64,000 nucleotides of DNA from an uncultured Gammaproteobacteria bacterium. GTDB lineage: Bacteria; Patescibacteriota; Microgenomatia; UBA1406; HO2-37-13b. The stretch covers positions 8,389 to 72,388 of the forward strand of contig CAYPSA010000001.1 in NCBI GenBank assembly GCA_964413645.1, given 5' to 3'. Position numbers and translations under genes: made by a program. Every line of letters starts with the position of its first letter. Position 1 is the stretch's first letter. This document shows positions 9,034 through 56,049 of the stretch, piece after piece. The notes beneath the pieces are model-generated. The model saw nothing but the letters and a program-made list of their open reading frames with translations, was not told the DNA's origin and did not search any database.

Positions 9034-9774
9034 CTAATTCTTTGTTCCTGGGTTGAAACCGGTTAACGTTGCAGTTACTCCGGCCATTGTCATGGAACTG
9101 ACTCCGACACCTTTGGTAAGCGTGTATTGAAGAATATCACCATTTTTATCGGGGGTTACGGTACCAGGAAGAAAGCTTGCGCCCATATTGATGCTTGAGC
9201 CGATTGTAATTGTATTTTCGGTGAGAGTACGGACTTTACTGAGAACCTTAATACCGTCTGACACAAGAGGAATTTGTACGCCTATGTCGATTGTACTGTC
9301 CCAAACCGCATCTTTAGTAAGTTTGGAATCGTTGGGTATGAAAAGGATCGCATCTATGATTGATGTAGGAATACTTTTTGAGGTAATTGGAATAAATGGC
9401 AGGCCGTAAACGCCGCTTTTTTTGCAGGTTAGAGTGGAGATAATTGCTTCTTTGGTAGTGGGGAGTTTAGTGGAAATAGTAACCGACGAATCTACGTTCT
9501 GTAGGACAGTGCTGGTAAAAGTAGTTCCCCCGGTCATTTTATATTTCCACGAGTTTCCTTTTTGAAAGTTGAAATATGAGCTTTGGCAGGGAATCAGGGA
9601 GTCGGGTTCTTGTGTCGGAACTGCCTCTACTGCGCTCGCCTGGGCACTTGCAACTTGGGCGCCGCCCAGAGGACTGAGCCCGGCGGGTGCGGGAAAAAAC
9701 CGTTCTTTAAGTAATATGCCGGTAATACCTACAAGCGAAACGAAAATTACAAAATTAAGAAATCGAGGTGACAT
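9034..9774 (-). CDS. Hypothetical secreted/membrane-anchored protein
   Basis: N-terminal hydrophobic helix, no recognisable domain; -10 box 6 nt upstream of ATG. Confidence 0.7.
   Translation of the reverse strand: MSPRFLNFVIFVSLVGITGILLKERFFPAPAGLSPLGGAQVASAQASAVEAVPTQEPDSLIPCQSSYFNFQKGNSWKYKMTGGTTFTSTVLQNVDSSVTISTKLPTTKEAIISTLTCKKSGVYGLPFIPITSKSIPTSIIDAILFIPNDSKLTKDAVWDSTIDIGVQIPLVSDGIKVLSKVRTLTENTITIGSSINMGASFLPGTVTPDKNGDILQYTLTKGVGVSSMTMAGVTATLTGFNPGTKN
9658..9687 (-). repeat. 30-nt GC-rich segment shared with the rplV 3' end (encodes PAGLSPLGGA)
   Basis: 24 of 30 nt identical to 36754-36783, in sense orientation in both genes. Confidence 0.7.
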
Positions 9775-10433: not shown

Positions 10434-10456
10434 TTACGAGCTCCGGGGGCTCGTAA
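10434..10456 (-). repeat. REP hairpin copy (TTACGAGCTCCGGGGGCTCGTAA)
   Basis: Reverse complement of the core CGAGCCCCCGGAGCTCG found next to the RAYT gene; lies directly after the HAD gene stop. Confidence 0.8.
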
Positions 10457-12926: not shown

Positions 12927-12940
12927 AGAGGGGTAAATTC

Positions 12941-13017
12941 GGGCCGGTAGCTCTCCGCCTGAAGGCGGAGGTAGAGCAGTCCCGATGCCGTTTTCGCATC
13001 GGGATTGGTCGTGGGTT
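12941..13017 (+). pseudogene. Truncated tRNA-like gene (acceptor 5' strand through first half of the T-arm), with a hairpin in the D-loop and a 10-bp anticodon stem
   Basis: GGGCCGGTA-GCTC[TCCGCCTGAAGGCGGAG]GTAGAGC-A-GTCCCGATGC-CGTTTTC-GCATCGGGAT-TGGTC-GTGGGTT, then the GIY-YIG ATG; a matching 3' acceptor strand CCGGCTC occurs at 13542-13548. Confidence 0.55.
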
Positions 13018-13275
13018 ATGAATCAATATTTTGTTTATATATTGAGAAGCGCCAAAGATGGTTCATTTTACATCGGATATTCACAGAATATCGAAGATCG
13101 GTTATGGGAACATAACATTGGAAGAACAGGGTATTCAAGTAAAAGAAGACCATGGGAATTGATATATAAAGAAGAATATGCTTCATCGACAGAAGCTTTA
13201 AAAAGAGAGAAGTATTTGAAGAGTTTAAAGAGTAAAAAGTACATTGAAAAGTTAGTTTTACTTTCGGGTCGGTAG
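13018..13275 (+). CDS. GIY-YIG nuclease superfamily protein (small URI-domain type)
   Basis: MNQYFVYILRS..GSFYIGYSQNIEDRLWEHN..REKYLK motifs; ATG immediately follows GTGGGTT of the tRNA-like T-arm; last 10 nt overlap tRNA-Lys. Confidence 0.85.
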   Translation: MNQYFVYILRSAKDGSFYIGYSQNIEDRLWEHNIGRTGYSSKRRPWELIYKEEYASSTEALKREKYLKSLKSKKYIEKLVLLSGR

Positions 13276-13340
13276 CTCAGTGGTAGAGCAGGAGCCTTTT
13301 AAGCTCTTGGTCGTGGGTTCGAACCCCACCCGACTCACCA
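13266..13340 (+). tRNA. tRNA-Lys (anticodon UUU), CCA encoded
   Basis: Hand-folded cloverleaf: acceptor GGGTCGG/CCGACTC, D GCTC/GAGC, anticodon loop CTTTTAA, T GTGGG-TTCGAAC-CCCAC, ACCA end. Confidence 0.9.
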
Positions 13341-13446
13341 AAATTTCCCTTTCTAAGAACAATTGGATTTGCTCAGTGGTAGAGCAGTCCCGATGCCGTT
13401 TTCGCATCGGGATTGGTCGTGGGTTCGAACCCCACCCGACTCACCA
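13341..13446 (+). repeat. 106-nt tRNA-like unit 1: 30-nt spacer plus tRNA-Lys body lacking the 5' acceptor strand, with a 10-bp anticodon stem (loop CGTTTTC)
   Basis: D-arm and the variable/T/acceptor 3' part are identical to tRNA-Lys; anticodon arm replaced by GTCCCGATGC-CGTTTTC-GCATCGGGAT. Confidence 0.75.
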
Positions 13447-13552
13447 AAATTTCCCTTTCTAAGAACAATTGGATTTGCTCAGTGGTAGAGCAGTCCCGAT
13501 GCCGTTTTCGCATCGGGATTGGTCGTGGGTTCGATCCCCTCCCGGCTCACTA
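13447..13552 (+). repeat. 106-nt tRNA-like unit 2; 3' end diverges (TTCGATCCCCTCCCGGCTCACTA) and complements the GGGCCGG acceptor at 12941
   Basis: Identical to unit 1 up to GTGGGTTCGA. Confidence 0.75.
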
Positions 13553-13562
13553 AAAATAGAAA

Positions 13563-17396: not shown

Positions 17397-17401
17397 TCCT
17401 G

Positions 17402-17443
17402 CAACCTGCGGGCTAAGCTAGGCACGTCCAACCTCTTAGGTTG
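17402..17443 (-). repeat. 42-nt conserved 3'-end element, copy gamma (CAACCTAAGAGGTTG..CGTGCCTA..CCCGCAGGTTG)
   Basis: Sense orientation, 4 nt after the stop of the GT2 gene; copies at 49838 and 55974. Confidence 0.75.
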
Positions 17444-17447
17444 AATT

Positions 17448-18929
17448 CTAGGCTTTCTCAGTCACCTTGTATTCCAAATTCTTTCCCAAAATTAGACGCG
17501 TGTGGGCTTCCAAGGCAGGTAGCGAAGAAAATACAAACGAAACAATTGGCATTAAATACCATTGGATAAATAGGAGCGGTACGTTGCGCATGCTCGTTTT
17601 AATGTTTACTTTTTCCCTGAGTTTGTGATCGAAGTAGAGGGTGATAACCATCGTGAGGGTTCCGAGGGTAAGGATTGCTGACGACATTTGGGGTAACAAA
17701 TATCCAAGTACCGTGCGGCCAAACGATGGATTTACTAGTCCTGGCACCCATGCGGAAAGGGTGAGAATAAAAAATGATGTTGGCCAAAGAAGGTGAGGTA
17801 TGGAAAGGAGCAATAGACGGCGAATTTTTGGCATCCATGGAATGTGTGGGGTTTGAAGTGACTGCTTGATTGCATAGGGAATGTCGGTTGCTCCCCACGC
17901 CCAGCGACGTTCTTGTTCGTAGCGATTCACAAACGTACTCATGATACTGCCGGTGTACACCGGATCGCCAATAACAGGTAAATAAATTGGTACAGTGCGT
18001 ACTTTTTCTCCGTGTTTGAAAAATGCTTGCAGCCAAATGTGCCAATCTTCGGGAATAATGTCGACATCCCAAAAATCTACGCTATGTAAAAGCCATAGGT
18101 TGGTGGAGTATGTAGAAACTTGAATTAAATCGTCGCGTTGGGGAAGCATAGAAATGCGGATAATGGAATGCAGAATTGCTTGCATACGAATTGGGAGGCT
18201 GAGTTTCCAGAAATTGTTGTAAAGTAAAATGGGCGCCCAGTAAAAATGGAAATCGCGGTCTTTGTCTTTTAGGAATTCCAAGCTTAAATACGCTAAATAG
18301 GTTGGGGGAAAGAGGCTGTCGGCGTCGGCGATGGTAATGATTGCTTGTTTTGGGTGGATACCACGTTTTGTTGCGTGTTCGTAAATTATCTTTCCTGCGT
18401 ATGCTTCATTACTTGCTTTTCCTACAACTTCCCCTTCGATAAGCGGGTGGTAGGTGGTCATAATTTCTCCAAAAATGTGACCGAATTTTTTATTGAGCTG
18501 ATCGCTTCGTTCGCAAGCTGCCTGGCCTTCTCGATCTTCCATGGCTAGGACGATAATTACTTTTTTTAAATCATATTCCTGCGCGGCAAGTTTTTCTAGG
18601 GAAAGCGTGACTTTTTCAACCGTTTCTTTGTAATTGGCGATAATTATGTAGTGCGCCAATTCTTGCCAACCGGGGGTTTTGAGTAATTTTTTGTGCCAAT
18701 CAATGGTTTCAGCTTTTTCCATAAGCTGATAGGCGAGTGCTGCGTAATAAACTCCCTTGATGGTTTTATAGAGAAAATACAGAAAGTACGCCAAAATGAA
18801 GTAGGAAACTAATGCGGGCCGAAAAGGAGAAAGGTATACAGGCATAAGAATAATGAGCCACGCCAAAATTGGAATCAGCATTTCTGCAAAACGGTAAAAT
18901 AATCGTGTCTCAACAATCTTATTGATCAT
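17448..18929 (-). CDS. Membrane glycosyltransferase, family 2-like
   Basis: N- and C-terminal TM helices around a GT-A-like core with a DAD motif (ITIADADSLF). Confidence 0.65.
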   Translation of the reverse strand: MINKIVETRLFYRFAEMLIPILAWLIILMPVYLSPFRPALVSYFILAYFLYFLYKTIKGVYYAALAYQLMEKAETIDWHKKLLKTPGWQELAHYIIIANYKETVEKVTLSLEKLAAQEYDLKKVIIVLAMEDREGQAACERSDQLNKKFGHIFGEIMTTYHPLIEGEVVGKASNEAYAGKIIYEHATKRGIHPKQAIITIADADSLFPPTYLAYLSLEFLKDKDRDFHFYWAPILLYNNFWKLSLPIRMQAILHSIIRISMLPQRDDLIQVSTYSTNLWLLHSVDFWDVDIIPEDWHIWLQAFFKHGEKVRTVPIYLPVIGDPVYTGSIMSTFVNRYEQERRWAWGATDIPYAIKQSLQTPHIPWMPKIRRLLLLSIPHLLWPTSFFILTLSAWVPGLVNPSFGRTVLGYLLPQMSSAILTLGTLTMVITLYFDHKLREKVNIKTSMRNVPLLFIQWYLMPIVSFVFSSLPALEAHTRLILGKNLEYKVTEKA

Positions 18930-24605: not shown

Positions 24606-25262
24606 ATGTCAAACTGGATTCTTTACGCCGCACTATTTTTTATCATCGCATACCTCAGTTACCCGCAATACCGCGATCGACTATATTTACCCACAACGCG
24701 TCCTTCGGTGTCATCCACACAGCCTTCCGAGCCCCCTGAGCTCGTAACTTCCGAGCCCCCGGAGCTCGTAATTCCCAAAGAAAAAGTAACCTATCAAAAA
24801 ACTTCCGATGAAGGTCAATGGGGTGTGGCTAAAAAAATTGGAGAACATACCTATACTATTAAAGTTGGGGAAGATTCTCGCATGGCCACTGCTCAAGAAA
24901 TTGTTGATGCGCTCAATGCATATCGACGCACACAAGGAAAAGGAGATCTTACGATCGATTCAAAACTTACTGAATATGCCCAATCCCGAGCCGACTTTTT
25001 TAAAACCCAAAAAACTACCGATGCCCACGCGGGTTTTAGTGCCTATTTAGATAACGAAGATGGCTTTAACAAACTCGGATTTTCCAAGCTCGGAGAAAAC
25101 TCCTATTACGGCGGCCCACTTTTTGGAGTACACCTTATCGAATGGGTTTTTGGAGCAAGTCCTGAACATAATGCGAACCAATTAGACGGATCCTGGAATT
25201 ACGTCGGCGTCGGCGTAAATAATACCGCAGTTAACCTTATCTTCGGCGGGGGAAAGATGTAA
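24606..25262 (+). CDS. CAP/SCP (YkwD-like) domain protein with N-terminal anchor
   Basis: TM helix, then a linker containing duplicated SEPPELV encoded by two REP copies, then a CAP-like core (ALNAYR..GENSYYG..SPEHNANQL). Confidence 0.75.
   Translation: MSNWILYAALFFIIAYLSYPQYRDRLYLPTTRPSVSSTQPSEPPELVTSEPPELVIPKEKVTYQKTSDEGQWGVAKKIGEHTYTIKVGEDSRMATAQEIVDALNAYRRTQGKGDLTIDSKLTEYAQSRADFFKTQKTTDAHAGFSAYLDNEDGFNKLGFSKLGENSYYGGPLFGVHLIEWVFGASPEHNANQLDGSWNYVGVGVNNTAVNLIFGGGKM
24725..24747 (+). repeat. REP copy inside the CAP-gene coding sequence (TTCCGAGCCCCCTGAGCTCGTAA)
   Basis: One mismatch to the core; in frame. Confidence 0.8.
24749..24771 (+). repeat. REP copy inside the CAP-gene coding sequence (TTCCGAGCCCCCGGAGCTCGTAA)
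   Basis: Tandem with the previous copy; in frame. Confidence 0.8.
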
Positions 25263-25263
25263 A

Positions 25264-25286
25264 TTACGAGCCCCCGGAGCTCGGAA
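25264..25286 (+). repeat. REP copy flanking the RAYT 3' end (TTACGAGCCCCCGGAGCTCGGAA)
   Basis: Contains the RAYT stop codon; 1 nt after the CAP gene stop. Confidence 0.85.
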
Positions 25287-25959
25287 AGAGTTTATTTACA
25301 TAAGAAAGTGTTTCCATCCTATCGAGCCCACTTTCTACAAATTGCCGATATAGTTTCGCATCGTTTTTAAAGTAGCTTAAGATTGTAGAGGTTTGAGCAA
25401 GCTCAAAATTATAAGTAGAATTGTTCAAATAAGTTGGATACGAACTCCACGGATATATACATAATTCCTCAGACGTCATGACTATTTTACTAGCAATAGG
25501 ATTGAGATGAACATATCGCGAAGTCACTAACAATTGCTCCTGACTTGTTATTGGTACAGCATGGAAACGATCTTCAAATAATGATCCCTTTCTTTTATGA
25601 ATGATATTATATGCATGGGTAAATGAATTAAGTAGGCCCGCTAAAAAATCCTGAACTCCATTGGTATTATTCTGTTTGAGAATGAAATGAAAATGATTTG
25701 GCATTAAGCAAAACGCAATAATATCGACCCTGAAATTAAAGGGATTATCAAATCTCTTTGCTGCATGATTTTTACTACTAGTATTGAGCCGCTTCCAATC
25801 TGAAAAACTAATGTTAAAGTCAGTTCCCCGATAAAATCGAATTGCTTCTATAAAGAATGTACACATGTGCATATCTAGGAAAGGAGTCTTACGATCAATC
25901 GTTCTGCTAAAAATATGGTAATAGTTGTTAGTAGTAAAAAGTACAGTACGCCGCGGCAT
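25264..25959 (-). mobile_element. REP-associated tyrosine transposase (RAYT; IS200/IS605-type Y1 HUH transposase family)
   Basis: HUH motif in CLMPNHFHFIL and tyrosine motif SRYVHLNPI; flanked by REP copies at 25264-25286 and 26065-26087. Confidence 0.85.
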
Positions 25960-25994
25960 ACGCGGAACTATGCCATATCATGTACAGAATGTCT

Positions 25995-26016
25995 ACGGTC
26001 TATAAGTCCCATAAAT
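25995..26016 (-). repeat. 22-nt segment identical (reverse complement) to 49934-49955
   Basis: ACGGTCTATAAGTCCCATAAAT versus ATTTATGGGACTTATAGACCGT; weaker similarity extends about 20 nt on each side. Confidence 0.7.
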
Positions 26017-26064
26017 AGAGGTCTAGATTGTCACAAAAGCTCAAAGAACGTCTTATGCTACTTG

Positions 26065-26087
26065 TTCCGAGCCCCCGGAGCTCGGAA
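26065..26087 (+). repeat. REP copy flanking the RAYT 5' side (TTCCGAGCCCCCGGAGCTCGGAA)
   Basis: Also 3 nt downstream of the stop of the PEGA/SH3 gene. Confidence 0.85.
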
Positions 26088-26090
26088 TCT

Positions 26091-27002
26091 TCACCGCTCC
26101 ACATACTGCCCACTTACCCATCCCTCCGCACCTTTTACATATTCAATCTTAATCCATCCATTTTCCTCCGAAATTATTACAAATGTATCTCCCGGATTCA
26201 CTTGCCCAACTTCGGCCCCTCCGGTTGAAGGCTTTTCTCGCACCCTTAAAAATCCGGTTGGCGTGTCTTTTATTTTCACCGATTTCATACCGGGTTTTAC
26301 TGTAGGAATCACTTTTCCACTTGGTGCCGGAGTTGGCTCTTCGCTTATTCCCGGTGTTCCCGTGAGTGTTGCCGATTCCGTAGAAATCTTGGGCTCTTCC
26401 ACTTTCTGATAACTTTTATCGATTGCCAGCTTTATTTCCCCCGAAACCACATACCCAGCTTCCACTTTAATTTTTTGCGATCTACGTATAAATCCAGGGC
26501 TATACGCCGAAATTTCATGCTCTCCTGCAGGTACGTTTTCCATTACCAGTGGCGCAATTCCTTTTTCATCATTATCTAAATATATGATTGTCCCAATCGG
26601 ATCTGTCGTAATTTCTATCGCCCCAACGTCTTTCCTATCGAGCTTTTTTTCACTTTTGCGTACCCAAAATACTACACCCGAAGAACTAATATCGCTTTCG
26701 CCTAATTCCCGATCTACATATGTTTTGCTATTTTTAAACGCAGAAATTTTGCCTTGCCACATGGCCGTTTCGGTTGCCACGCCATCAGCTTTCAAAATTA
26801 GCATATGTTCTCCTGCGCTTACCACAAATCCATCAAGGGGAGTTTTTCCAATAATTTTTCCATCAAGGGTTACCGTTGCATTAGGCGATGAGAGTATTTT
26901 CAATTCCGGATCATGCTCTTTTTTAAGAAGAAATACTGAAACAAGCGTGAAGATTACAAATCCCGCAAAGAGGATTACTAAAAACAGCAATTTCTTCTTC
27001 AT
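26091..27002 (-). CDS. Secreted PEGA-domain / bacterial SH3-domain protein
   Basis: N-terminal anchor, two PEGA-like repeats (..VPAGEHEISAYSPGF), C-terminal SH3b-like GFLRVREKPS..GWVSGQYV. Confidence 0.75.
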   Translation of the reverse strand: MKKKLLFLVILFAGFVIFTLVSVFLLKKEHDPELKILSSPNATVTLDGKIIGKTPLDGFVVSAGEHMLILKADGVATETAMWQGKISAFKNSKTYVDRELGESDISSSGVVFWVRKSEKKLDRKDVGAIEITTDPIGTIIYLDNDEKGIAPLVMENVPAGEHEISAYSPGFIRRSQKIKVEAGYVVSGEIKLAIDKSYQKVEEPKISTESATLTGTPGISEEPTPAPSGKVIPTVKPGMKSVKIKDTPTGFLRVREKPSTGGAEVGQVNPGDTFVIISEENGWIKIEYVKGAEGWVSGQYVER

Positions 27003-27010
27003 GGTAGGCT

Positions 27011-27019
27011 ATTTTACCA
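27011..27019 (-). promoter_or_regulatory. Extended -10 TGGTAAAAT, 8 nt before ATG at 27002
   Basis: Read on the minus strand. Confidence 0.45.
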
Positions 27020-27058
27020 CAATTAAACAACCCCGCGACAATATAAACAACCCATTGC

Positions 27059-27106
27059 CATTTCGAACGCCATCTTTTTCATTTCGAACGCAGCGAGAAA
27101 TCTCGG
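27059..27106 (+). repeat. CATTTCGAACGC x2 plus AGCGAGAAATCTCGG (GTCATYCTGAG-type repeat family)
   Basis: Direct repeat at 27059 and 27080; fuzzy similarity to the reverse complement of 10359-10379. Confidence 0.45.
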
Positions 27107-27143
27107 ATCAAGCGAGTGCCTAATTTGATACCAGCCTATAGTT

Positions 27144-27152
27144 ATGATATAC
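27144..27152 (+). promoter_or_regulatory. Extended -10 TGATATACT at the left edge of the island's non-coding region
   Basis: Followed by hairpins at 27175-27191 and 27189-27205 and a T8 run at 27232-27239. Confidence 0.35.
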
Positions 27153-27343
27153 TATACACACTTTTAATTGTCCCAACGCATTAGCTGCGTTACGGACGAT
27201 GTAACAGTTTTTGGCATAATACCCAAAACAGTTTTTTTTGCACTTTAACAACTTGCAGACAAAAAAATTATACGGACGGCTTTTTGGGTATCAAATTCTG
27301 GTATTCAGCAAGCCGTTCGTATTAAAAACAACAATCCCCCCCC

Positions 27344-27387
27344 GACAATCACCCGATTGTCACCAACGACTTCCTAACGGAAGAGAA
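27344..27387 (+). promoter_or_regulatory. Leader block A, copy 1 (two stem-loops plus purine-rich SD), upstream of island ORF1
   Basis: GACAATC-ACCC-GATTGTC, then CTTCC-TAAC-GGAAG; 24-nt identical run shared with copy 2. Confidence 0.7.
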
Positions 27388-27392
27388 AGCGT

Positions 27393-27866
27393 ATGGATAG
27401 AATCATGGGCATCTCGCAGCTCGTGGCCTTTTTCCTGCTTGTCGCGCTAGCCATTTGGACACTCCATCAGAATAGTCGGCTGAAGGCTGATTTGAAGAGA
27501 AGGATAGAAGTGGATAGGGACGTCAAGTTCTATACGTCGCACTTCCTTCACTTCCACATCAATAGAATCATAGAACGTTTCCCACTACAAGGAGATCGGA
27601 AGGAGGTAGTTAAAGCGACTGAGATACGTAAGCTCGTGATGAGGAGACTCATTGAAGAGATCATGCGGTTAAGACCTGCGTCGATCGTACAATGGCTTCC
27701 GATTATTCTCGAGCGGGTACAGAACCTTTCCACCGATGCACGTTGGTGGGATCCAGATCTTGTAATGCTTAGTCGAGATGAGGTTTACAATCTGATCGTC
27801 TACTCGTTAGAACCAACACAACCCGCTCCACAACAGAGCGTACAAGAGGATGGCTCCGCGCAGTAA
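27393..27866 (+). CDS. Island ORF1: hypothetical protein with N-terminal TM helix (157 aa)
   Basis: ORF preceded by leader A; G/C-ending codon preference; no recognisable domain. Confidence 0.55.
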   Translation: MDRIMGISQLVAFFLLVALAIWTLHQNSRLKADLKRRIEVDRDVKFYTSHFLHFHINRIIERFPLQGDRKEVVKATEIRKLVMRRLIEEIMRLRPASIVQWLPIILERVQNLSTDARWWDPDLVMLSRDEVYNLIVYSLEPTQPAPQQSVQEDGSAQ

Positions 27867-27880
27867 TCAGAACTCCCCAC

Positions 27881-27924
27881 GACAATCACCCGATTGTCAC
27901 CAACATCTTCCTAAGGGAAGAGAA
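27881..27924 (+). promoter_or_regulatory. Leader block A, copy 2, upstream of island ORF2
   Basis: 3 mismatches over 44 nt to copy 1; AAGGAG 7 nt before the ATG. Confidence 0.7.
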
Positions 27925-27935
27925 GGAGTAGGACC

Positions 27936-28169
27936 ATGCTTATGCTCGATGCATTGCTCAAGCGGATCTACGATCTGGATAGGGTAGAACAGTTGTTTGC
28001 TGCTGCAATAGTAGTAATAACACTGCTGGAAGATCTGGTCAAAAAGCTTGATGAGCTCAATCTGGTCGAGTCTTACGTCGTGAATCGCATCAACAGCCTC
28101 AAGCTTGATCTGCTGCAGAGCCAATTGGACATGATCACAAGGATAGCTCAAGAAGAAGGAGCTCGTTGA
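27936..28169 (+). CDS. Island ORF2: small Leu-rich, probably helical protein (77 aa)
   Basis: AAGGAG SD at 7-nt spacing; no recognisable domain. Confidence 0.5.
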   Translation: MLMLDALLKRIYDLDRVEQLFAAAIVVITLLEDLVKKLDELNLVESYVVNRINSLKLDLLQSQLDMITRIAQEEGAR

Positions 28170-28179
28170 CGGTTCGGAT

Positions 28180-28237
28180 TTAAGCACTTCGCACCCGCGA
28201 ATTGTCCGCCAGTCGGAAAAAAACAACCATCCGGTCG
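28180..28237 (+). promoter_or_regulatory. Leader block B, copy 1, upstream of island ORF3
   Basis: 16-nt identical core GCGAATTGTCCGCCAG plus flanking similarity (..AAACAAC..TCCGGTCG) shared with copy 2. Confidence 0.7.
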
Positions 28238-28259
28238 TACTGCCAAAAGGAGAATTGCC

Positions 28260-29063
28260 GTGAAGAAGTCGGTCTTGGATCAAGTCAAGCGCGGAACCGC
28301 TGAATGGGTTGTGGGTCATGCCATGTGGCAGAAGAGCCAAGGCAGGAAGCCATCGGAACCCTATGGCAACATCCGCAATCCACAGCACGCGTATCGTGCT
28401 GCATTGTCGGATCTGTTCTACTCGACCCCCCCCGCAGGCAGTTACGTTGATCATTACATCGCATGGATGGTCAAGGTCGCTACCCTCATTCGTTTGCCGA
28501 TGTGCTCGGTTTTCAACGGTGTTAACATCACCGTGTGGCCGGGCGACATCCCTGATGATCTTGCGCGTGCCTATCGCAACGAATGCGAGCGTCGCCACCA
28601 GGAGTACTTGAACTCTCCGGAGTACAAGCTTGCTCTACGGAAAGCCAAGGAAGCCCAGCGTGCACGCAATGCACAGCTAAGGGAATTCCTTGCTGTTGCA
28701 CCCAAGAAGATGACTTGCATTGATGTGCGGTTGTGGCGTGATCTCTACAAGAAGAATACCGACCCCTATGGTCGTGCTATTCTTTCCTACGCCTCACGCT
28801 GGGCTCGAATCATGGAAGGTCAGATCAACAACGGTCGTGTCTTGGAAGACTGTGCTAACGAAGCAAGTCATGTTGGTGATAGCGAAGGCATCACTGGCTT
28901 CATGTATGGCATGGCCGTATTCATCCTGTCACGGGTCTGGGTTCATGGTGACCAGCTTCGACGTTGGCACAACCGCTCAACCCAGATCAGCGACGAAGGC
29001 GATCGTGCAAATGAAGAAGGAGGAGTCTTGAATCCAGCAGTTCTCATCATTGGCGCAAGCTGA
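28260..29063 (+). CDS. Island ORF3: hypothetical protein (267 aa, GTG start)
   Basis: AAGGAG 7 nt upstream of the GTG; Trp/Arg-rich; no recognisable domain. Confidence 0.6.
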   Translation: MKKSVLDQVKRGTAEWVVGHAMWQKSQGRKPSEPYGNIRNPQHAYRAALSDLFYSTPPAGSYVDHYIAWMVKVATLIRLPMCSVFNGVNITVWPGDIPDDLARAYRNECERRHQEYLNSPEYKLALRKAKEAQRARNAQLREFLAVAPKKMTCIDVRLWRDLYKKNTDPYGRAILSYASRWARIMEGQINNGRVLEDCANEASHVGDSEGITGFMYGMAVFILSRVWVHGDQLRRWHNRSTQISDEGDRANEEGGVLNPAVLIIGAS

Positions 29064-29072
29064 TACCAATTC

Positions 29073-29129
29073 TTAGCACTACGCCCCGCGCGAATTGTCC
29101 GCCAGCCGTAATAAAACAACTTCCGGTCG
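29073..29129 (+). promoter_or_regulatory. Leader block B, copy 2, upstream of island ORF4
   Basis: See copy 1. Confidence 0.7.
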
Positions 29130-29153
29130 CATCAATCACGGGAAGGTCCAGTC

Positions 29154-29360
29154 ATGAGAAGTCTCAAGCAGTTCCTCGATGAACACTTCGAGGATAACTA
29201 TGCTGGTCAGCTTGACCAGGCTATCGCCCTTGCACGTGCCTTGTTCGAGACGCTCTCTAAGTTGGGGCGTAATGACGGCATGAGAGATCTCTCCGGACAA
29301 GCCTTCGAGATGATCAAGCGTCTCATTGACGAAATGCACGATCAGTTCGGCTCACGCTGA
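29154..29360 (+). CDS. Island ORF4: small acidic, probably helical protein (68 aa)
   Basis: GGAAGG 7 nt upstream; no recognisable domain; an antisense ORF of equal size also exists. Confidence 0.45.
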   Translation: MRSLKQFLDEHFEDNYAGQLDQAIALARALFETLSKLGRNDGMRDLSGQAFEMIKRLIDEMHDQFGSR

Positions 29361-29406
29361 GTAAACAACCAAATAGCCCACTCCACTGCCCACCCCGGGC
29401 AACTCC

Positions 29407-29427
29407 AATCGTCTTAAAGACGATTTT
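29407..29427 (+). terminator. Hairpin AATCGTC-TTAAA-GACGATT followed by TT
   Basis: 7-bp stem 46 nt after the island ORF4 stop; short U tract. Confidence 0.4.
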
Positions 29428-29456
29428 GCAGAGTCTGCAAGCAACCAAGTGCAATT

Positions 29457-29534
29457 AGAGCACGAGTTTGAAATGGGTAGCTTTCGCTACTTTGTGACTT
29501 CTGTCACCATTTCTATAAACCTCGTGCTCTTTTT
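29457..29534 (+). ncRNA. Branched stem structure ending in a U tract (complex terminator or small structured RNA)
   Basis: P1 AGAGCACGAG/CTCGTGCTCT, P2 GAAATG/CATTTC, hairpins GTAGC-TTTC-GCTAC and GTGAC-TTCT-GTCAC, then TTTTT. Confidence 0.4.
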
Positions 29535-29539
29535 GTATG

Positions 29540-29545
29540 TATAAT
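29540..29545 (+). promoter_or_regulatory. -10 box TATAAT, 6 nt before the radA ATG at 29552
   Basis: Read directly. Confidence 0.5.
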
Positions 29546-29551
29546 ATCCCC

Positions 29552-30838
29552 ATGTCCTACCTGTGTACTTCTTGCGGTGTAACGTCAGCTTCGTGGTACG
29601 GTAAATGCCCTGAATGTAGCAATTGGAACACGCTCGTTGCTCAGGCACCGGTCAACAAAAAAAGTAAAGGATCTGCCAAGTCATCGACCCCTGCAAAAAT
29701 CACTCCTATGTCTAGCATTTCAAGCCTCACCTCAAATCGCATTCCCGTGGGCATTCACGAGGTCGATAGAGTGTTGGGCGGCGGTTTTATGGGTGGGGAA
29801 GTCATTTTGCTTGCTGGCCAGCCAGGAGTAGGAAAATCAACACTCCTTTTATCTGCGCTTACGGGTAAAAGGACACTCTATGTTTCAGGTGAAGAATCTG
29901 GTGAGCAAGTCCGCCACCGCGCCGATCGACTTGGCGTCGATATCAATAATTTCGCCTTTTCCGATACAGTTGCAGTGGAATCATTACTAGAGCTCTTAGA
30001 AAGTAATGCCGCAGACTACGATGTTGTCGTCATCGATTCTATTCAAACCATATACTCAGAATCTATGAAAAACACCTTCGGAAGCACTTCACAAATTAAA
30101 GAAGCAGCAAGCGCGCTTATCGACGTTGCTAAAAAAAAGAACCTCGTTATGATAATTGTAGGCCACATAACCAAAGAAGGCGACATCGCCGGTCCTAAAA
30201 CGCTCGAACATTTGGTCGACTGTGTTCTTTATTTGGAAGGAGCAAAAGACTCGCAATACCGTCTTCTACGAGCCCAAAAAAACCGATTTGGTTCAACCGA
30301 TGAAGTTGGTGTTTTTGAAATGGGCGAGAAAGGACTTAACGAAGTTAAAAATCCTGCGGTTTTCATTAATCAAGCTGCCATCTCCGAGCCTGGCCGAGTA
30401 ATTGTTGCAGTTCCCGAAGGCTCCCGGTCACTTTTTTTTGAAGTTCAATGTCTCGTTGTCCCAACTACCCTCAACTTTCCCCGCCGAGTGGTTTCTGGCG
30501 TTGATTACAATAAAGTACAACTGCTCCTCGCCGTTCTTCAAAAGAATGCGCGCCTACCGCTCGATAAATTTGATGTCTATGTTAATGTTGTTGGGGGAAT
30601 TTCGATTAAGTCTACTGCGGCGGATTTGGGAGTAGTTACCGCAATTTTTTCTTCAATTAAAAATAAGCCTGTTTCTTCAAAATCGGTATTTACCGGTGAA
30701 ATTGGGCTACTTGGGGAAGTGCGTGCGGTTCTTGGAGAAGAAAAGCTGATCAAAGAAGCAAGTCGCTTCGGATTTTCCAAAGTCTATTCTTCAAAAAATC
30801 TCACATCAGTAAACGCCATTGCATCGGTTCTGAAATAG
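29552..30838 (+). CDS. radA: DNA repair protein RadA/Sms
   Basis: Zn finger CTSCGV..CPEC, Walker A GQPGVGKST, KNRFG motif, Lon-like C-terminus; start trimmed to MSYLCTSCG. Confidence 0.93.
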   Translation: MSYLCTSCGVTSASWYGKCPECSNWNTLVAQAPVNKKSKGSAKSSTPAKITPMSSISSLTSNRIPVGIHEVDRVLGGGFMGGEVILLAGQPGVGKSTLLLSALTGKRTLYVSGEESGEQVRHRADRLGVDINNFAFSDTVAVESLLELLESNAADYDVVVIDSIQTIYSESMKNTFGSTSQIKEAASALIDVAKKKNLVMIIVGHITKEGDIAGPKTLEHLVDCVLYLEGAKDSQYRLLRAQKNRFGSTDEVGVFEMGEKGLNEVKNPAVFINQAAISEPGRVIVAVPEGSRSLFFEVQCLVVPTTLNFPRRVVSGVDYNKVQLLLAVLQKNARLPLDKFDVYVNVVGGISIKSTAADLGVVTAIFSSIKNKPVSSKSVFTGEIGLLGEVRAVLGEEKLIKEASRFGFSKVYSSKNLTSVNAIASVLK

Positions 30839-30842
30839 TCCC

Positions 30843-30871
30843 TTGCAAATCCACACATTGTTCGTTATAAT
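30843..30871 (+). promoter_or_regulatory. Sigma-70-type promoter of tuf (TTGCAA - 17 nt - TATAAT)
   Basis: -35 at 30843-30848, -10 at 30866-30871; about 45-nt AT-rich leader without SD. Confidence 0.6.
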
Positions 30872-30920
30872 TCAGTTTTAGTCATTACAAATTATTAATT
30901 TCAATTAATCAAACAAAACT

Positions 30921-32105
30921 ATGGCACAGGACAAATTTGATCGTAATAAACCTCATTTGAACATTGGAACCATTGGTCACGTCGATCATGGTAAAACTAC
31001 GTTAACATCGGCTATTCATACCGTTCTTTCTAAAAAAGGTCTTGCAAAGGCCATGAAATACGAAGAAATTGATAAAGCTCCTGAAGAAAAAGCTCGAGGA
31101 GTAACCATTAACATTCATCACTCTGAATACGAAACCATGAAGCGTCACTATGCTCATATTGATGCTCCAGGACACGCTGATTACATTAAGAACATGATTA
31201 CCGGTGCCGCTCAAATGGACGGTGCTATCTTGGTCGTTTCAGCTCCCGATGGACCAATGCCACAAACCCGAGAACACTTGCTCTTGGCTCAACAGGTTAA
31301 CGTTCCTGCAATTGTCGTTTTCTTAAACAAATGCGACATGGTCAAAGATCCAGAAATTCTCGAATTGGTCGAAATGGAAGTCCGCGACTTGCTTAGCAAG
31401 TATGGCTACCCAGGAGACACCACACCTATCATTCGAGGTTCAGCTCTTAAGGCAATCGAAGGCGATGCAGAAGCTGAAAAAGCTATCGAATCGCTCATGG
31501 ACACAGTTGATGAATTTGTCCCAGAACCAACTCGTGATGTTGATAAACCATTCCTTATGCCAGTTGAAGACGTCTTCACCATTCAAGGTCGAGGAACTGT
31601 CGTAACCGGTCGTGTTGAACGAGGAATCTTGAAACTTAACGAAGAAGTAGAAATCGTTGGGCTTAAAGAAACCCAAAAAACAGTCGTAACTGGTATCGAA
31701 ATGTTCAAGAAATTACTTGACGAAGCTCGAGCCGGCGACAACGTTGGACTTCTTATTCGAGGAATCGAAAAAGAACAAGTCGAACGTGGACAAGTTATTG
31801 CTAAGCCAAAGTCAATCACCCCACATACTGAATTCGAGGCTGAAATCTATGTCTTGAAGAAAGAAGAAGGTGGTCGACACAGCCCATTCTTCACTGGATA
31901 TCGTCCACAGTTCTACATCCGAACTACCGACGTTACCGGAGAAGTTACTTTAGACAAATCAATTGAAATGGTTATGCCTGGTGATAACGTAAAAATTAAC
32001 GCCAAGCTTATCTACCCAGTTGCTTTGGAAGAAGGCCTGAAGTTTGCTATTCGCGAAGGCGGACATACCGTTGGAGCAGGAGTAGTAACCAAGGTTACTA
32101 AATAA
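30921..32105 (+). CDS. tuf: Elongation factor Tu
   Basis: [21 protein letters not shown] motifs; 394 aa. Confidence 0.98.
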
Positions 32106-36324: not shown

Positions 36325-36792
36325 ATGGAATCATTAACATACATTAAATACAACCGAATTTCGCCAAAAAAATTGCGATTTATTCTTGACGATGTCAAGA
36401 AATTCACGCCTGAACAGGCCATTGTACGGCTTGAATACAGTCCACTTCGAACAAGTAAGTTACTTGCTAAAGCTCTTAGTAGTGCGCTATCTAATGCATC
36501 TGCAGCTTTAAAAATAGATAAAAATTTGTTACAATTCAAGACACTGCTTGTGGAAGAAGGCCCACAATTAAAAAGAATGCGTCCAGGATCTCGCGGAATG
36601 GGCAGAATGTTTAAACGCAGAAGTAGTCACATCAAGATTGTATTAGTGGGTAAGGAGAGCGCAAGTGTGTCAACCTCACAGGTTACCAGTGCGCAGACAA
36701 GCCCGGAGGTTGCCGAAAAAGCAGAAGTTATAAAACCAAAAGTTACAAATAAACCCGCCGGGCAGAGCCCTCTGGGCGGCGCCAAAAAATAA
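36325..36792 (+). CDS. rplV: 50S ribosomal protein L22, with C-terminal extension
   Basis: L22 core; follows rplB after 4 nt, with no rpsS in between. Confidence 0.93.
   Translation: MESLTYIKYNRISPKKLRFILDDVKKFTPEQAIVRLEYSPLRTSKLLAKALSSALSNASAALKIDKNLLQFKTLLVEEGPQLKRMRPGSRGMGRMFKRRSSHIKIVLVGKESASVSTSQVTSAQTSPEVAEKAEVIKPKVTNKPAGQSPLGGAKK
36754..36783 (+). repeat. 30-nt GC-rich segment shared with 9658-9687 (encodes PAGQSPLGGA)
   Basis: CCCGCCGGGC......CTCTGGGCGGCGCC. Confidence 0.7.
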
Positions 36793-49819: not shown

Positions 49820-49837
49820 GCTCTCATATACAATATA

Positions 49838-49879
49838 CAACCTAAGAGGTTGAACGTGCCTAGCAAATCCCGGAGGTTG
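49838..49879 (+). repeat. 42-nt conserved 3'-end element, copy alpha
   Basis: CAACCTAAGAGGTTGAACGTGCCTAGCAAATCCCGGAGGTTG, 18 nt after the rpsI stop. Confidence 0.75.
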
Positions 49880-49933
49880 CCAAACTGCGTGGTATAAGGG
49901 ACATTTTACTCTGTCCTATAACTCCAAACCCTC

Positions 49934-49955
49934 ATTTATGGGACTTATAGACCGT
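49934..49955 (+). repeat. 22-nt segment identical (reverse complement) to the RAYT upstream region at 25995-26016
   Basis: ATTTATGGGACTTATAGACCGT. Confidence 0.7.
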
Positions 49956-50024
49956 TGATGCTTCTTCCATAGTCTGTTATTATTTTCTACCGCTTGACAT
50001 AATGATTTATTTGTCATAAAATGT

Positions 50025-50321
50025 ATGGAAGTAACATATCACCCAAAAGTAGAAGAAGAGATTAAAAACCTGCCTGTCAAAGATAGTTCAAAGATTGTTA
50101 TCGACATCGAATTTTTTAAAGAAATAGAGTTCCAGTTGACAGCGGAATATATTAAGAAAATTTCGCCAAAAATCTGGGAATTAAGATCGGGAAGATATCG
50201 ATTACTGTTTGGCATGATAAGAGGAATTTGTGTATTTACGAATATTTTCTACAAAAAGACCCAGAAAACACCGAAGCGAGAATTACAATTGGCAATAAAT
50301 AGATTAAAACAATATATATGA
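50025..50321 (+). CDS. Type II toxin, RelE/HigB (Gp49-like) family
   Basis: IWELRSGRYRLLF...KKTQKTPKRELQLA pattern typical of the Gp49/HigB family. Confidence 0.8.
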   Translation: MEVTYHPKVEEEIKNLPVKDSSKIVIDIEFFKEIEFQLTAEYIKKISPKIWELRSGRYRLLFGMIRGICVFTNIFYKKTQKTPKRELQLAINRLKQYI

Positions 50322-55968: not shown

Positions 55969-55973
55969 GACGT

Positions 55974-56015: not shown

Positions 56016-56049
56016 TCATAGGTAAATGAAAGCTCGCTTACATTTCCTG

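What the first reader, a model, noticed from the sequence alone, without database searches (positions are those of the whole stretch)
25264..26087. RAYT (REP-associated tyrosine transposase) flanked by its cognate REP hairpins; five REP copies in the window
Seen: the 231-aa minus-strand ORF has the HUH motif (PNHFHFIL) and the catalytic-Tyr motif (RYVHLNPI) of IS200/IS605-type Y1 transposases. It is bracketed by 23-nt elements with the core CGAGCCCCCGGAGCTCG (25264-25286 and 26065-26087). Further copies lie at 10434-10456 (inverted), 24725-24747 and 24749-24771. The extragenic copies sit within 1-3 nt of stop codons (the HAD gene, the CAP gene and the PEGA gene). Established: this is the canonical RAYT/REP arrangement described in proteobacteria. 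Inference: an active or recently active REP system in a reduced CPR-like genome is worth noting, and the REPs probably double as 3'-end hairpins.
Basis: partly seen in the sequence, partly recalled or inferred. Interest (0 to 1): 0.55.

Follow-up and report, generated by a model that had tools for sequence, protein, structure and literature searches.

The report
Hairpin-flanked RAYT-like nuclease gene in CPR
A small candidate-phyla-radiation bacterium carries one conserved copy of a domesticated transposase-like nuclease gene, flanked by its own 23-24-base DNA hairpin, and copies of that hairpin have also landed after one gene and, in frame, inside another, which extends a system known mainly from proteobacteria to ultra-small genomes in a non-canonical form.

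Summary
All five copies of CGAGCCCCCGGAGCTCG sit at the stated coordinates (0.02 expected by chance). The 231-aa ORF is a Y1/HUH protein whose model is closest to E. coli TnpA_REP (4ER8).

The RAYT/REP reading is supported and extended:
- Orthologues at 72% and 60% identity sit in the same PEGA-Y1-CAP-SOD neighbourhood.
- dN/dS is about 0.09.
- The 17-nt core is identical at three orthologous sites although synonymous sites are saturated.
- More distant orthologues carry compensated palindrome variants.
- Among 70 metagenomic homologue loci, 76% share a lineage-specific repeat between the two gene flanks, against 3% of control positions. Most of these repeats are hairpins.

It is not the canonical proteobacterial arrangement:
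- The two flanking copies are direct, not inverted.
- There is no GT[AG]G foot.
- The copy number is low.
- The NCBIfam RAYT cut-off is missed.
- The motifs fit TnpA_Y1 subclass 2.1 (Group 1/TIRYT-like), which is reported as REP-less.

The 24725-24771 doublet lies in frame inside the CAP gene (2, 1 and 0 copies in three lineages). The 25264 copy encodes the nuclease's own last codons and stop. The HAD-gene copy is a precise 24-nt insertion absent from relatives.

Verdict: a new variant of a known kind, of moderate interest.

The parts
25264..25959 (-). Single-copy Y1/HUH nuclease gene (RAYT/TnpA_REP-like, 231 aa). HUH is at H89-F-H91 and the catalytic Tyr at Y149 (RYVHLNP). A WSSY motif lies at residues 171-174.
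   Evidence: all 17 family-invariant residues are present; AF2 pLDDT 90.8; 4ER8 E=6e-8; single copy; dN/dS ~0.09.
26065..26087 (+). REP hairpin upstream of the Y1 gene (TTCCGAGC-CCCCGGA-GCTCGGAA). It lies 105 nt before the start codon and 3 nt after the PEGA stop.
   Evidence: ssDNA dG -8.2/-9.3 kcal/mol, z -3.5/-3.9. The orthologous copy in L122 has the compensated foot TTAC..GTAA.
25264..25286 (+). REP copy that forms the last 8 codons and the stop codon of the Y1 ORF. It lies 1 nt after the CAP stop, between convergent genes.
   Evidence: The same position is occupied in L122 (identical core) and in L124/L127 (variant GAACTCCCGGAGTTC).
24725..24771 (+). Tandem doublet of the 24-nt REP unit, in frame inside the CAP-domain gene. 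It sits in the linker between the N-terminal membrane anchor and the CAP domain and encodes SEPPELVT SEPPELVI.
   Evidence: (spacing 24). The N-terminus MSNWILY is conserved in orthologues. The window has two units, L122 one and L124 none.
10434..10456 (-). Isolated REP copy in the opposite orientation, 1 nt after the stop of the HAD hydrolase gene. It is a precise 24-nt insertion relative to relatives.
   Evidence: L208/L209 (HAD 87% identical) and L210 (77%) have no REP at this site.
25967..25995 (-). Promoter-like site of the Y1 gene (TAGACA-17-TGgCATAGT). The -10 element ends 7 nt before the ATG. The sequence is conserved in orthologues.
24606..25262 (+). Host gene (membrane-anchored CAP-domain protein) that carries the in-frame REP doublet.

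Best explanation
This is a REPtron-like unit in a Microgenomates-type CPR bacterium. It consists of one vertically inherited Y1/HUH single-strand DNA nuclease gene of the TnpA_REP (RAYT) class, kept under purifying selection, together with its cognate 23-24-nt G+C-rich hairpin.

One hairpin copy lies 105 nt upstream of the gene. A second overlaps its stop codon. Hairpin-only copies have been seeded elsewhere: after the HAD gene, and as an in-frame doublet in the CAP gene.

Shown:
- The hairpin potential of the repeat.
- The gene-repeat association across about 70 related loci.
- Identity of the repeat copies within a lineage, against compensated divergence between lineages.
- Presence/absence and copy-number polymorphism of the repeat.
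- A TnpA_REP-like fold with the HUH and Tyr motifs intact.

Inferred:
- The protein binds the folded hairpin on single-stranded DNA. It cuts at or near the foot of the hairpin through Tyr149, which forms a 5'-phosphotyrosine link while the HUH histidines hold the metal ion, and then rejoins the strands.
- This activity occasionally pastes the 24-nt unit into new sites, keeps the copies uniform, and promotes local rearrangement between copies.
- The direct orientation of the two flanking copies and their fixed distances from the gene suggest that the unit descends from an IS200-like element (left-end hairpin, tnpA, right-end hairpin) that lost autonomous mobility.
- Copies next to stop codons may be tolerated there, or may also protect mRNA 3' ends.
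For: Protein:
- Pfam Y1_Tnp is above its cut-off.
- NCBIfam REP_Tyr_transpos is the only Y1/transposase-type hit (E=2e-13) and no IS200 model appears.
- A profile of the family against PDB gives 4ER8 as best hit, aligned from the HUH region through the Tyr motif and on to the WSS region.
- The AF2 model (pLDDT 90.8) matches 4ER8 best (E=6e-8, TMt 0.73), ahead of the ISDra2 and IS608 TnpA structures (~5e-5).
- All family-invariant residues are present.
- dN/dS is 0.088 (window vs L122) and 0.091 (L124 vs L127).

Vertical inheritance:
- The gene is single-copy in 64 kb.
- Orthologues at 72% and 60% identity lie in the same PEGA-Y1-CAP-SOD context.

Cognate repeat:
- The 17-nt core is 100% identical at three orthologous sites in L122, although dS is 1.5-2.2.
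- At the orthologous upstream site the hairpin foot changed from TTCC..GGAA to TTAC..GTAA.
- L124/L127, L125 and L126 carry compensated variants (GAACTCCCGGAGTTC, GAACCTCGGGGGTTC, GACCCCCGGGGTC) flanking their orthologues and elsewhere on the same contigs.

Family-wide:
- 76% of 70 loci share an exact repeat of 13 nt or more between the up- and downstream flanks, against 3% at control positions (Mann-Whitney p=3e-26).
- 64% of those repeats hold a perfect stem of 6 bp or more, against 5% of controls.

Mobility:
- A 24-nt insertion after the HAD stop is absent in relatives with 87% and 77% identical HAD.
- The CAP linker holds 2, 1 or 0 units in three lineages.
- L122 has a partial extra half-copy.
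- The gene segment between the REPs is inverted relative to PEGA in L125.
Against: - There is no biochemical evidence.
- Only 5 copies occur in 64 kb, four of them within 1.4 kb of the gene. The genome-wide count could not be obtained.
- In the wider family most loci show only the two flanking copies. Distal copies occur in 6 of 22 long loci.
- The flanking copies are direct, there is no GT[AG]G guide, and no conserved flanking tetranucleotide exists across the family.
- The NCBIfam equivalog cut-off is not reached.
- Conservation of the core could reflect a host function of the hairpin rather than recognition by the nuclease.
- The covariation count used sequences that had been selected for palindromy, so it is circular for the inner pairs.
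Confidence: 0.7

Rival explanations
1. It is an autonomous IS200-like insertion sequence. The two hairpins would be the left and right ends of an ~820-bp element that carries only tnpA, and the whole unit would transpose.
For: - The two flanking copies are in direct orientation, 801 nt apart.
- Across the family the hairpins sit at fixed distances from the gene: median 39 nt before the ATG and 53 nt after the stop.
- They often share asymmetric outer flanks in direct orientation.
- Most loci have just these two copies.
- The fold is shared with the IS608 and ISDra2 TnpA structures.
Against: - The gene is single-copy in the window.
- Only 4 of 88 related loci hold a second Y1 gene. Where compared (L164, L154, L204), those pairs are only 71-82% identical at nucleotide level over the aligned segments.
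- The neighbourhood is conserved at 72% and 60% protein identity while synonymous sites are saturated.
- The Tyr motif is Y-x3-NP and the HUH is H-F-H. These are class 2 features, not the Y-x3-Q and H-[VI]-H of subclass 1.1 (PMC6006769 Table 1).
- Hairpin-only copies exist away from the gene.
- No TnpB is adjacent.
Confidence: 0.15
2. The hairpins are host regulatory elements, such as mRNA 3'-end protectors or terminators. On this reading their proximity to the Y1 gene is incidental, or the gene merely sits in a hairpin-rich spot.
For: - Three copies lie 1-3 nt after stop codons.
- A second repeat family also lies just after stop codons.
Against: - The association of lineage-specific palindromes with both flanks of the gene holds in 76% of 70 loci against 3% of controls.
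- Copies occur in frame inside coding regions.
- No T-tract follows the hairpins and none is scored as terminator-like.
- The orientation relative to the adjacent transcripts is not consistent.
Confidence: 0.08
3. The palindromes are double-stranded operator sites bound by a dimeric regulator, possibly the Y1 protein itself, to control the locus. On this reading no DNA cleavage is involved.
For: - The sequence is nearly perfectly dyad-symmetric.
- One copy lies just upstream of the promoter-like site.
- Copies flank the gene at fixed distances.
Against: - The HUH and Tyr catalytic residues are invariant across the family, which points to catalysis.
- Compensatory stem changes with free choice of base pair fit a folded hairpin better than a protein-read duplex.
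- The distal and intragenic copies have no regulatory rationale.
Confidence: 0.05

Closest known systems
E. coli TnpA_REP (RayT/YafM) REPtron; TnpA_Y1 subclass 2.2 / RAYT Group 2 (PDB 4ER8)
   Same: - A single-copy Y1/HUH gene flanked by a cognate hairpin repeat that also occurs elsewhere.
- It is the best fold and profile match.
- Both have the Y-x3-NP motif and are vertically inherited.
- In both, REPs abut stop codons.
   Different: - Only 14% sequence identity.
- 231 aa against 165 aa.
- The W of the W[EQ] motif is replaced by F (LFEDRF).
- There is no GTAG foot, and there are no inverted REP pairs or BIMEs.
- 5 copies per 64 kb, clustered at the gene, rather than hundreds dispersed over the genome.
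- The NCBIfam cut-off is not reached.
TnpA_Y1 subclass 2.1 (Quentin et al. 2018, PMC6006769) = RAYT Group 1 (Bertels et al. 2017, PMC5581495), roughly the TIRYT/TIRtron of Di Nocera et al. 2013 (PMC3733652)
   Same: - The motif signature matches: NH[YF]H, FQ-type motif in place of W[EQ], Y[IV]HLNP, an SS motif in the tail, and a length of ~238 aa (against Table 1 of PMC6006769).
- Copy number is low.
- Some TIRs of TIRYTs are self-complementary and form small repeat families.
- The repeat in L126 contains GGGGTCAC, which fits the TIR consensus GGGGWSAS.
   Different: - This subclass is reported as having no REP-like sequences nearby.
- Here short hairpins flank the gene, in the window and across the CPR family.
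- The window repeat does not fit GGGGWSAS.
- No C-terminal HTH domain (Bac_DnaA_C, HTH_23, HTH_28) was detected by Pfam.
- CPR genomes were not part of those surveys (no mention in PMC6006769).
- My assignment rests on motif signatures only, not on a phylogeny.
IS200 (IS200/IS605 family, TnpA only)
   Same: - The layout hairpin - tnpA - hairpin, with both hairpins on the same strand, and a unit of ~0.8 kb.
- Presumably the same HUH/Tyr chemistry on single-stranded DNA.
   Different: - The protein is 231 aa rather than ~150 aa.
- It has class 2 motifs.
- It is single-copy, syntenic and under purifying selection.
- Hairpin-only copies exist elsewhere.
Intragenic REPs and Rickettsia palindromic elements (RPE)
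   Same: Palindromic repeats are inserted in frame in protein-coding genes, in linkers or tails, without destroying the ORF (PMC3733652). In TnpA_Y1 subclass 2.4, REPs are even inserted in frame in the tnpA_REP gene itself (PMC6006769). I saw the same in several CPR homologues.
   Different: - The unit here is only 24 nt (8 codons).
- The host is a CPR bacterium.
- RPEs have no known dedicated enzyme.

Membership tests
RAYT / TnpA_REP (class 2 TnpA_Y1) | Y1_Tnp core with an HUH motif and a Tyr motif of the type Y-x3-NP | tested here: met
   The protein contains MPNHFHF and RYVHLNP. Pfam Y1_Tnp scores 29.7 bits against a cut-off of 23. These residues are invariant in 41 homologues.
RAYT / TnpA_REP (class 2 TnpA_Y1) | Score above the curated cut-off of NCBIfam NF047646 (REP-associated tyrosine transposase, equivalog) | tested here: not met
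   The score is 50.4 bits against a cut-off of 80, and only profile positions 46-141 are matched.
RAYT / TnpA_REP (class 2 TnpA_Y1) | Fold of TnpA_REP | tested here: met
   The AF2 model has pLDDT 90.8. The top Foldseek hit is 4ER8 with E=6e-8 and TMt 0.73, ahead of the IS200-family TnpA structures.
RAYT / TnpA_REP (class 2 TnpA_Y1) | The gene is flanked by a hairpin repeat that also occurs at other sites of the genome | tested here: met
   Copies lie on both sides of the gene, plus 3 more in 64 kb. The same holds in orthologue contigs and across the family.
RAYT / TnpA_REP (class 2 TnpA_Y1) | A 5' GT[AG]G tetranucleotide at the foot of the hairpin | tested here: not met
   The feet are TTAC/TTCC ... 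GTAA/GGAA and form part of the stem. No conserved flanking tetranucleotide is found in 29 family loci.
RAYT / TnpA_REP (class 2 TnpA_Y1) | REPs arranged as inverted pairs (REPINs/BIMEs) around the gene | tested here: not met
   In the window the flanking copies are direct and the CAP doublet is a direct tandem. The flanking copies are inverted in L127, and L126 has clusters of copies.
RAYT / TnpA_REP (class 2 TnpA_Y1) | Single copy, vertically inherited, housekeeping-like | tested here: met
   There is one copy in the window. The neighbourhood is conserved at 72% and 60% identity. dN/dS is ~0.09. Only the 64-kb window, not the whole genome, could be checked.
RAYT / TnpA_REP (class 2 TnpA_Y1) | High genome-wide abundance of the flanking repeat (tens to hundreds of copies) | not testable with these tools
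   Only 64 kb of the genome is held. The genome-contig scan returned only chance hits in high-GC genomes. The metagenome scan returned none.
RAYT / TnpA_REP (class 2 TnpA_Y1) | The protein binds and cleaves its REP as single-stranded DNA | not testable with these tools
   This needs a biochemical assay.
IS200 TnpA / IS200 insertion sequence (subclass 1.1) | Tyr motif Y-x3-Q, HUH with V or I, protein of ~150 aa without extra domains | tested here: not met
   The protein has YVHLNP and H-F-H, is 231 aa long and has a conserved WSSY tail. No IS200 NCBIfam model is hit.
IS200 TnpA / IS200 insertion sequence (subclass 1.1) | Several near-identical copies per genome at variable locations | tested here: not met
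   There is a single copy in the window and the location is syntenic. The few paralogue pairs compared in related loci are 71-82% identical at nucleotide level over the aligned segments. The whole genome was not available.
IS200 TnpA / IS200 insertion sequence (subclass 1.1) | Subterminal hairpins at both ends on the same strand | tested here: met
   Direct copies lie at 25264-25286 and 26065-26087. The family-wide pattern agrees.
TnpA_Y1 subclass 2.1 / RAYT Group 1 / TIRYT | Signature NH[YF]H, FQ-type motif instead of W[EQ], Y[IV]HLNP, SS motif in the tail, ~238 aa | tested here: met
   The window protein has NHFH, LFEDRF (family consensus LFQGxF), YVHLNP and WSSY, and is 231 aa long. These were compared with Table 1 of PMC6006769. 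This is a signature match only; no tree was built.
TnpA_Y1 subclass 2.1 / RAYT Group 1 / TIRYT | C-terminal HTH-like domain (Bac_DnaA_C, HTH_23 or HTH_28) | tested here: not met
   Pfam reports only Y1_Tnp at E<=0.01. The model shows three short C-terminal helices of unassigned type.
TnpA_Y1 subclass 2.1 / RAYT Group 1 / TIRYT | No REPs; instead long terminal inverted repeats, many with GGGGWSAS | tested here: inconclusive
   The window has short hairpins in direct orientation, with GGGGGCTC (no fit to the consensus). The repeat in L126 contains GGGGTCAC (fits), and the flanking copies in L127 are inverted.

The most novel reading that the evidence does not exclude
The CPR-wide Y1 family (~3,000 clusters at 50% identity) may not be a REP proliferator. 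It may instead be a locus-bound single-strand DNA processing system that keeps two to five copies of a lineage-specific hairpin identical by ongoing copy-correction.

The maintained copies would include ones placed in frame inside its own ORF, just after the catalytic Tyr motif, and inside host ORFs. The hairpins would then act as substrates for programmed inversion, excision or autoregulation of the locus, and as a source of linker-length variation in secreted proteins of ultra-small bacteria.
Probability: 0.2. Interest if true: 0.7.

Novelty: new variant of a known kind. Interest (0 to 1): 0.55.

Why it matters
RAYT/REP systems have been characterised almost entirely in proteobacteria. The largest RAYT-like group (subclass 2.1 / Group 1) has been described as lacking cognate hairpins, which left its function open.

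Here a large CPR family with that motif signature is shown to carry lineage-specific hairpins at both gene flanks. There is also evidence for co-evolution, for homogenisation of the copies, and for new insertions, including in-frame insertions into host genes.

This gives a compact, low-copy system (one gene and a handful of 24-nt sites) in which the enzyme-hairpin relationship can be tested directly. It also shows that even streamlined ~1-Mb genomes keep such elements.

Tried and rejected
- **Genome scan with the 17-mer.** Scanning genome contigs returned 119 single chance hits in high-GC genomes (loci GC >= 0.58).
- **Metagenome scan with the 23-mer.** No hits, so a genome-wide count was impossible.
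- **Single-sequence phmmer against PDB.** Nothing meaningful came back; a profile was needed.
- **Covariation count on 23 REP copies.** The result looks strong (80.9% paired; covariation score 0.432 against 0.254). However, the sequences had been picked with a palindrome filter, so I do not rely on it for the inner pairs. I replaced it with the non-circular tests and with comparisons of orthologous sites.
- **Conserved guide tetranucleotide beside the stems.** None was found across the family.
- **Terminator scan.** No REP qualifies as terminator-like.
- **GC skew.** It follows local gene orientation and says nothing about replication direction relative to REP orientation.
- **tblastn against plasmids.** Only 25-34% identical 'transposase' hits were found, which is uninformative for classification.
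- **Rfam.** Nothing matches at the repeats.
- **Literature search.** No paper in the held library describes RAYT/REP systems in CPR.
Full report
**1. Observation**

The minus-strand ORF 25264-25959 encodes 231 aa containing ...CLMPNHFHFILKQ... (HUH) and ...SRYVHLNPIASK... (catalytic Tyr). It passes Pfam Y1_Tnp (29.7 bits, cut-off 23).

The 17-nt core CGAGCCCCCGGAGCTCG occurs four times exactly: at 24752, 25267 and 26068 on the + strand and at 10437 on the - strand. It occurs once more with one mismatch at 24728. Shuffles give 0.02 matches. With its feet the element reads TT[A/C]CGAGC-CCCCGGA-GCTCG[G/T]AA.

As single-stranded DNA the best copies fold into an 8-9-bp stem. For the fully paired copies dG is -7 to -9.3 kcal/mol and z is -3.5 to -4.2. 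The copy at 25264 has a mismatched foot and is weaker. The stated distances to the HAD, CAP and PEGA stop codons are correct.

**2.

- *The doublet is intragenic.* The two copies at 24725-24771 are not extragenic. They form a direct tandem of a 24-nt unit lying in frame inside the CAP-domain ORF 24606-25262. They sit in the linker after the N-terminal membrane anchor and encode SEPPELVT-SEPPELVI. The ORF start is real, because the N-terminus MSNWILY... is conserved in two orthologues. The linker holds two units in the window, one in L122 (CAP 86% identical) and none in L124 (71%).
- *One copy is part of the nuclease gene.* The copy at 25264-25286 supplies the last eight codons and the TAA of the Y1 gene (FPSSGGS*). 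The same holds in L122 (..FTSSGGS*). In L124/L127 a variant palindrome sits at the same place (..SELPEFPKIP*).
- *The flanking copies are direct.* The two copies around the gene are in direct orientation, as at IS200 ends. They are not inverted as in E. coli or Pseudomonas REPtrons.

**3. The protein**

- NCBIfam's REP-associated tyrosine transposase model is the only Y1/transposase-type hit (E=2e-13). It scores below the equivalog cut-off (50.4 against 80), and no IS200 model is hit.
- A 41-sequence alignment shows invariant Y14-H15, M86, N88-H89, H91 (the MPNHFH motif), Y149, H151, N153-P154 (the YxHLNP motif) and Y169, S172-S173 (the YxWSS motif). All are present in the window protein.
- A profile of that alignment finds E. 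coli TnpA_REP (4ER8) as the best solved relative, aligned from the HUH region through the Tyr motif to the WSS region.
- The AlphaFold model is confident (pLDDT 90.8). Its best structural match is 4ER8 (E=6e-8, TMt 0.73), ahead of the ISDra2, IS608 and IS200 TnpA structures (about 5e-5 and weaker).
- Against Table 1 of Quentin et al. 2018 (PMC6006769), the signature is NHFH, an F in place of the W of the W[EQ] motif, Y[IV]HLNP, an SS tail motif and a length of ~230 aa. This fits subclass 2.1 (Bertels Group 1, roughly the TIRYTs of Di Nocera 2013).
- That paper states that neither automatic nor manual searches found REP-like sequences for subclass 2.1. Bertels et al. found only slightly elevated flanking 16-mers for Group 1.
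- This assignment is by signature only. I found no C-terminal HTH domain.

**4. Inheritance**

- The gene is single-copy in the window.
- The exact protein is on two Logan contigs that are 100% identical to the window.
- A 72% identical orthologue (L122/L123) lies in the same PEGA-Y1-CAP-SOD order. A 60% orthologue (L124) lies next to CAP-SOD.
- dN/dS is 0.088 (window vs L122, dS 2.18) and 0.091 (L124 vs L127, dS 0.81). The gene is therefore functional and long-resident, not a recent insertion.
- Local rearrangement does occur. In L125 the gene is inverted relative to PEGA, with the PEGA stop now abutting the hairpin at the gene's 3' end. In L126 the gene abuts metK and is surrounded by a cluster of six or more hairpins.

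**5. The hairpin is the gene's cognate repeat**

- In L122 the 17-nt core is identical at the three orthologous sites: upstream of the gene, at its 3' end, and in the CAP linker. Yet synonymous sites between the two lineages are saturated (dS 1.5-2.2). By my arithmetic, unconstrained sites would be about 35% identical or less under Jukes-Cantor, so 51 identical positions require constraint or homogenisation.
- At the orthologous upstream site the foot changed from TTCC..GGAA to TTAC..GTAA, a double compensatory change.
- More distant orthologues carry different but still palindromic versions at the same places and elsewhere on their contigs. L124/L127 have GAACTCCCGGAGTTC, L125 has GAACCTCGGGGGTTC, and L126 has GACCCCCGGGGTC.
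- Position 3:13 of the palindrome appears as G:C, A:T and C:G.
- The formal pair count agrees. However, it is circular for the inner pairs because I had selected the sequences for palindromy.

**6. Family-wide, non-circular test**

- A scan of JGI metagenomes returned 80 loci encoding 29-45% identical homologues. Homologues carrying source names are labelled Patescibacteria, Daviesbacteria or Berkelbacteria.
- In 70 loci with both flanks present, the longest exact sequence shared between the upstream and downstream flank has a median of 18 nt, against 9 nt at control positions. It is 13 nt or longer in 76% of loci against 3% of controls (Mann-Whitney p=3e-26).
- These repeats were chosen only because they are shared between the flanks. 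Even so, 64% contain a perfect stem of 6 bp or more, against 5% of random 30-mers from the same loci.
- The repeats are lineage-specific. They sit at stereotyped distances: median 39 nt before the ATG and 53 nt after the stop. They often share asymmetric outer flanks in direct orientation. They have no common guide tetranucleotide.
- Usually only the two flanking copies are present. Distal copies occur in 6 of 22 long loci. Second Y1 genes occur in only 4 of 88 loci, and where compared (L164, L154, L204) the pairs are 71-82% identical at nucleotide level over the aligned segments.
- The family is large: 2,998 representatives at 50% clustering with E<=1e-30.

**7. Evidence that hairpin units move**

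- The HAD-gene copy is a precise 24-nt insertion (TTTACGAGCCCCCGGAGCTCGTAA) between the stop codon and TGCC. Relatives whose HAD protein is 87% (L208/L209) or 77% (L210) identical have the uninterrupted sequence and no such palindrome anywhere in 10-20 kb.
- The CAP linker shows 2, 1 or 0 units in three lineages.
- L122 has an extra 3' half-unit beside the upstream copy.

**8. Organism**

Ribosomal protein S9 finds its best named relatives in Candidatus Roizmanbacteria and Woesebacteria and in the Patescibacteria group, at 52-57% identity. The 'CPR-like' label is therefore justified.

**9. Mechanism**

The best-supported reading is a REPtron-like unit. A domesticated Y1/HUH single-strand nuclease recognises its hairpin on single-stranded DNA and cleaves and rejoins through Tyr149. 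This occasionally pastes the 24-nt unit elsewhere, keeps the copies uniform, and provokes local inversions.

The association, the conservation against a saturated background, the compensatory changes, the polymorphisms and the fold are shown. Binding, cleavage and the link between enzyme and insertion are inferred by analogy with TnpA_REP and IS608 TnpA.

The direct orientation and fixed spacing suggest descent from an IS200-like unit.

The rivals are less well supported (see the rival entries): a still-mobile IS200-like element, host 3'-end hairpins unrelated to the gene, and a duplex operator. A 3'-end protective role for the copies after stop codons is possible but untested. None of these copies is terminator-like.

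**10. Comparison and novelty**

- It works like a RAYT/REP system. It meets the core, fold, flanking-repeat and single-copy criteria.
- It fails the GT[AG]G foot, the inverted-pair arrangement and the NCBIfam equivalog cut-off. Its abundance could not be tested.
- In-frame intragenic REPs and REP-supplied stop codons are already known from other bacteria (PMC3733652). So are REPs inside tnpA_REP genes (PMC6006769, subclass 2.4).
- What appears new is the host group, for which I found no paper in the held library. Also new is the consistent hairpin association of a family whose signature matches a subclass reported as REP-less.

Hence: a new variant of a known kind, of moderate interest.

Noticed in passing
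L166, L190, L192, L194, L197/L198, L199, L202, L203, L205, L206 (inside the Y1 genes, about nt 435-490; in L194 and L197 also about nt 140-150): In about ten metagenomic homologues the lineage-specific flanking palindrome is also present in frame inside the Y1 gene. It sits directly after the catalytic Tyr motif (RYIHRNP | palindrome | ..Y.YSSY). Copies within a locus are near-identical, while the palindromes differ between loci. This implies either concerted evolution or repeated insertion at one hotspot.
   Followed up: partly
window 17401-17449 (-), 36671-36715, 49835-49882, 55968-56018: There is a second ~45-nt repeat family (TCAACCTAAGAGGTTG..GTGCC..CCCGSAGGTTGC). Three copies start within 0-16 nt of stop codons: after a GT2 glycosyltransferase gene, after the S9 gene, and after a 780-aa ORF. 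One copy lies inside a coding region. Its half-site resembles REP variants of related contigs.
   Followed up: partly
window 36325-36792 (+); 36753-36786 and 9655-9688: Ribosomal protein L22 has a ~48-aa C-terminal extension built from repeats. It contains the family-2 repeat and a third G+C-rich palindromic repeat. That third repeat also occurs in the N-terminal region of ORF 9034-9774 (-), where it encodes PAGxSPLGGA, as it does in L22.
   Followed up: partly
window 49885-49960, with ORFs 50025-50321 and 50318-50614: This is a paralogous copy of the Y1 gene's promoter/leader (TGGTATAAGGGA...ATTTATGGGACTTATAGACCGTTGA). It is preceded by a family-2 repeat. It is followed not by a Y1 gene but by a Gp49/HigB-like toxin gene and an HTH antitoxin gene. 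It may be a relic of a second RAYT locus or a shared promoter.
   Followed up: partly
window 27338-27393 and 27875-27930; 28260-29063; 26000-32000: A 56-nt direct repeat (89% identical, with two small hairpins) precedes two successive ORFs. The next gene carries a Tad4 (Thoeris inhibitor) domain. The region has 46-47% GC against ~40% elsewhere, which suggests a foreign island next to the PEGA/Y1 locus.
   Followed up: partly
window 12940-13555: A GIY-YIG nuclease ORF (13018-13275, Pfam E=1e-16) sits between a tRNA-like fragment and tRNA-Lys(TTT) at 13266-13340, and its 3' end overlaps the start of that tRNA. Exact 106-nt tandem repeats follow. They carry tRNA-like units whose anticodon arm is replaced by a 9-bp stem (TCCCGATGC-CGTTTTC-GCATCGGGA). 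ARAGORN and Rfam call only the one tRNA.
   Followed up: partly
L125:59-1641 and L126:4830-5800: In L125 the segment between the hairpins, which holds the Y1 gene, is inverted relative to the PEGA gene when compared with the window. In L126 the gene abuts metK and is surrounded by a BIME-like cluster of six or more hairpins. The hairpin sites therefore look like rearrangement breakpoints.
   Followed up: partly
window 25960-25995 (-): The conserved promoter-like site of the Y1 gene (TAGACA-17-TGgCATAGT) ends 7 nt before the ATG. This suggests a leaderless or nearly leaderless mRNA. The GTAGACA box recurs in distant family members such as L164.
   Followed up: no
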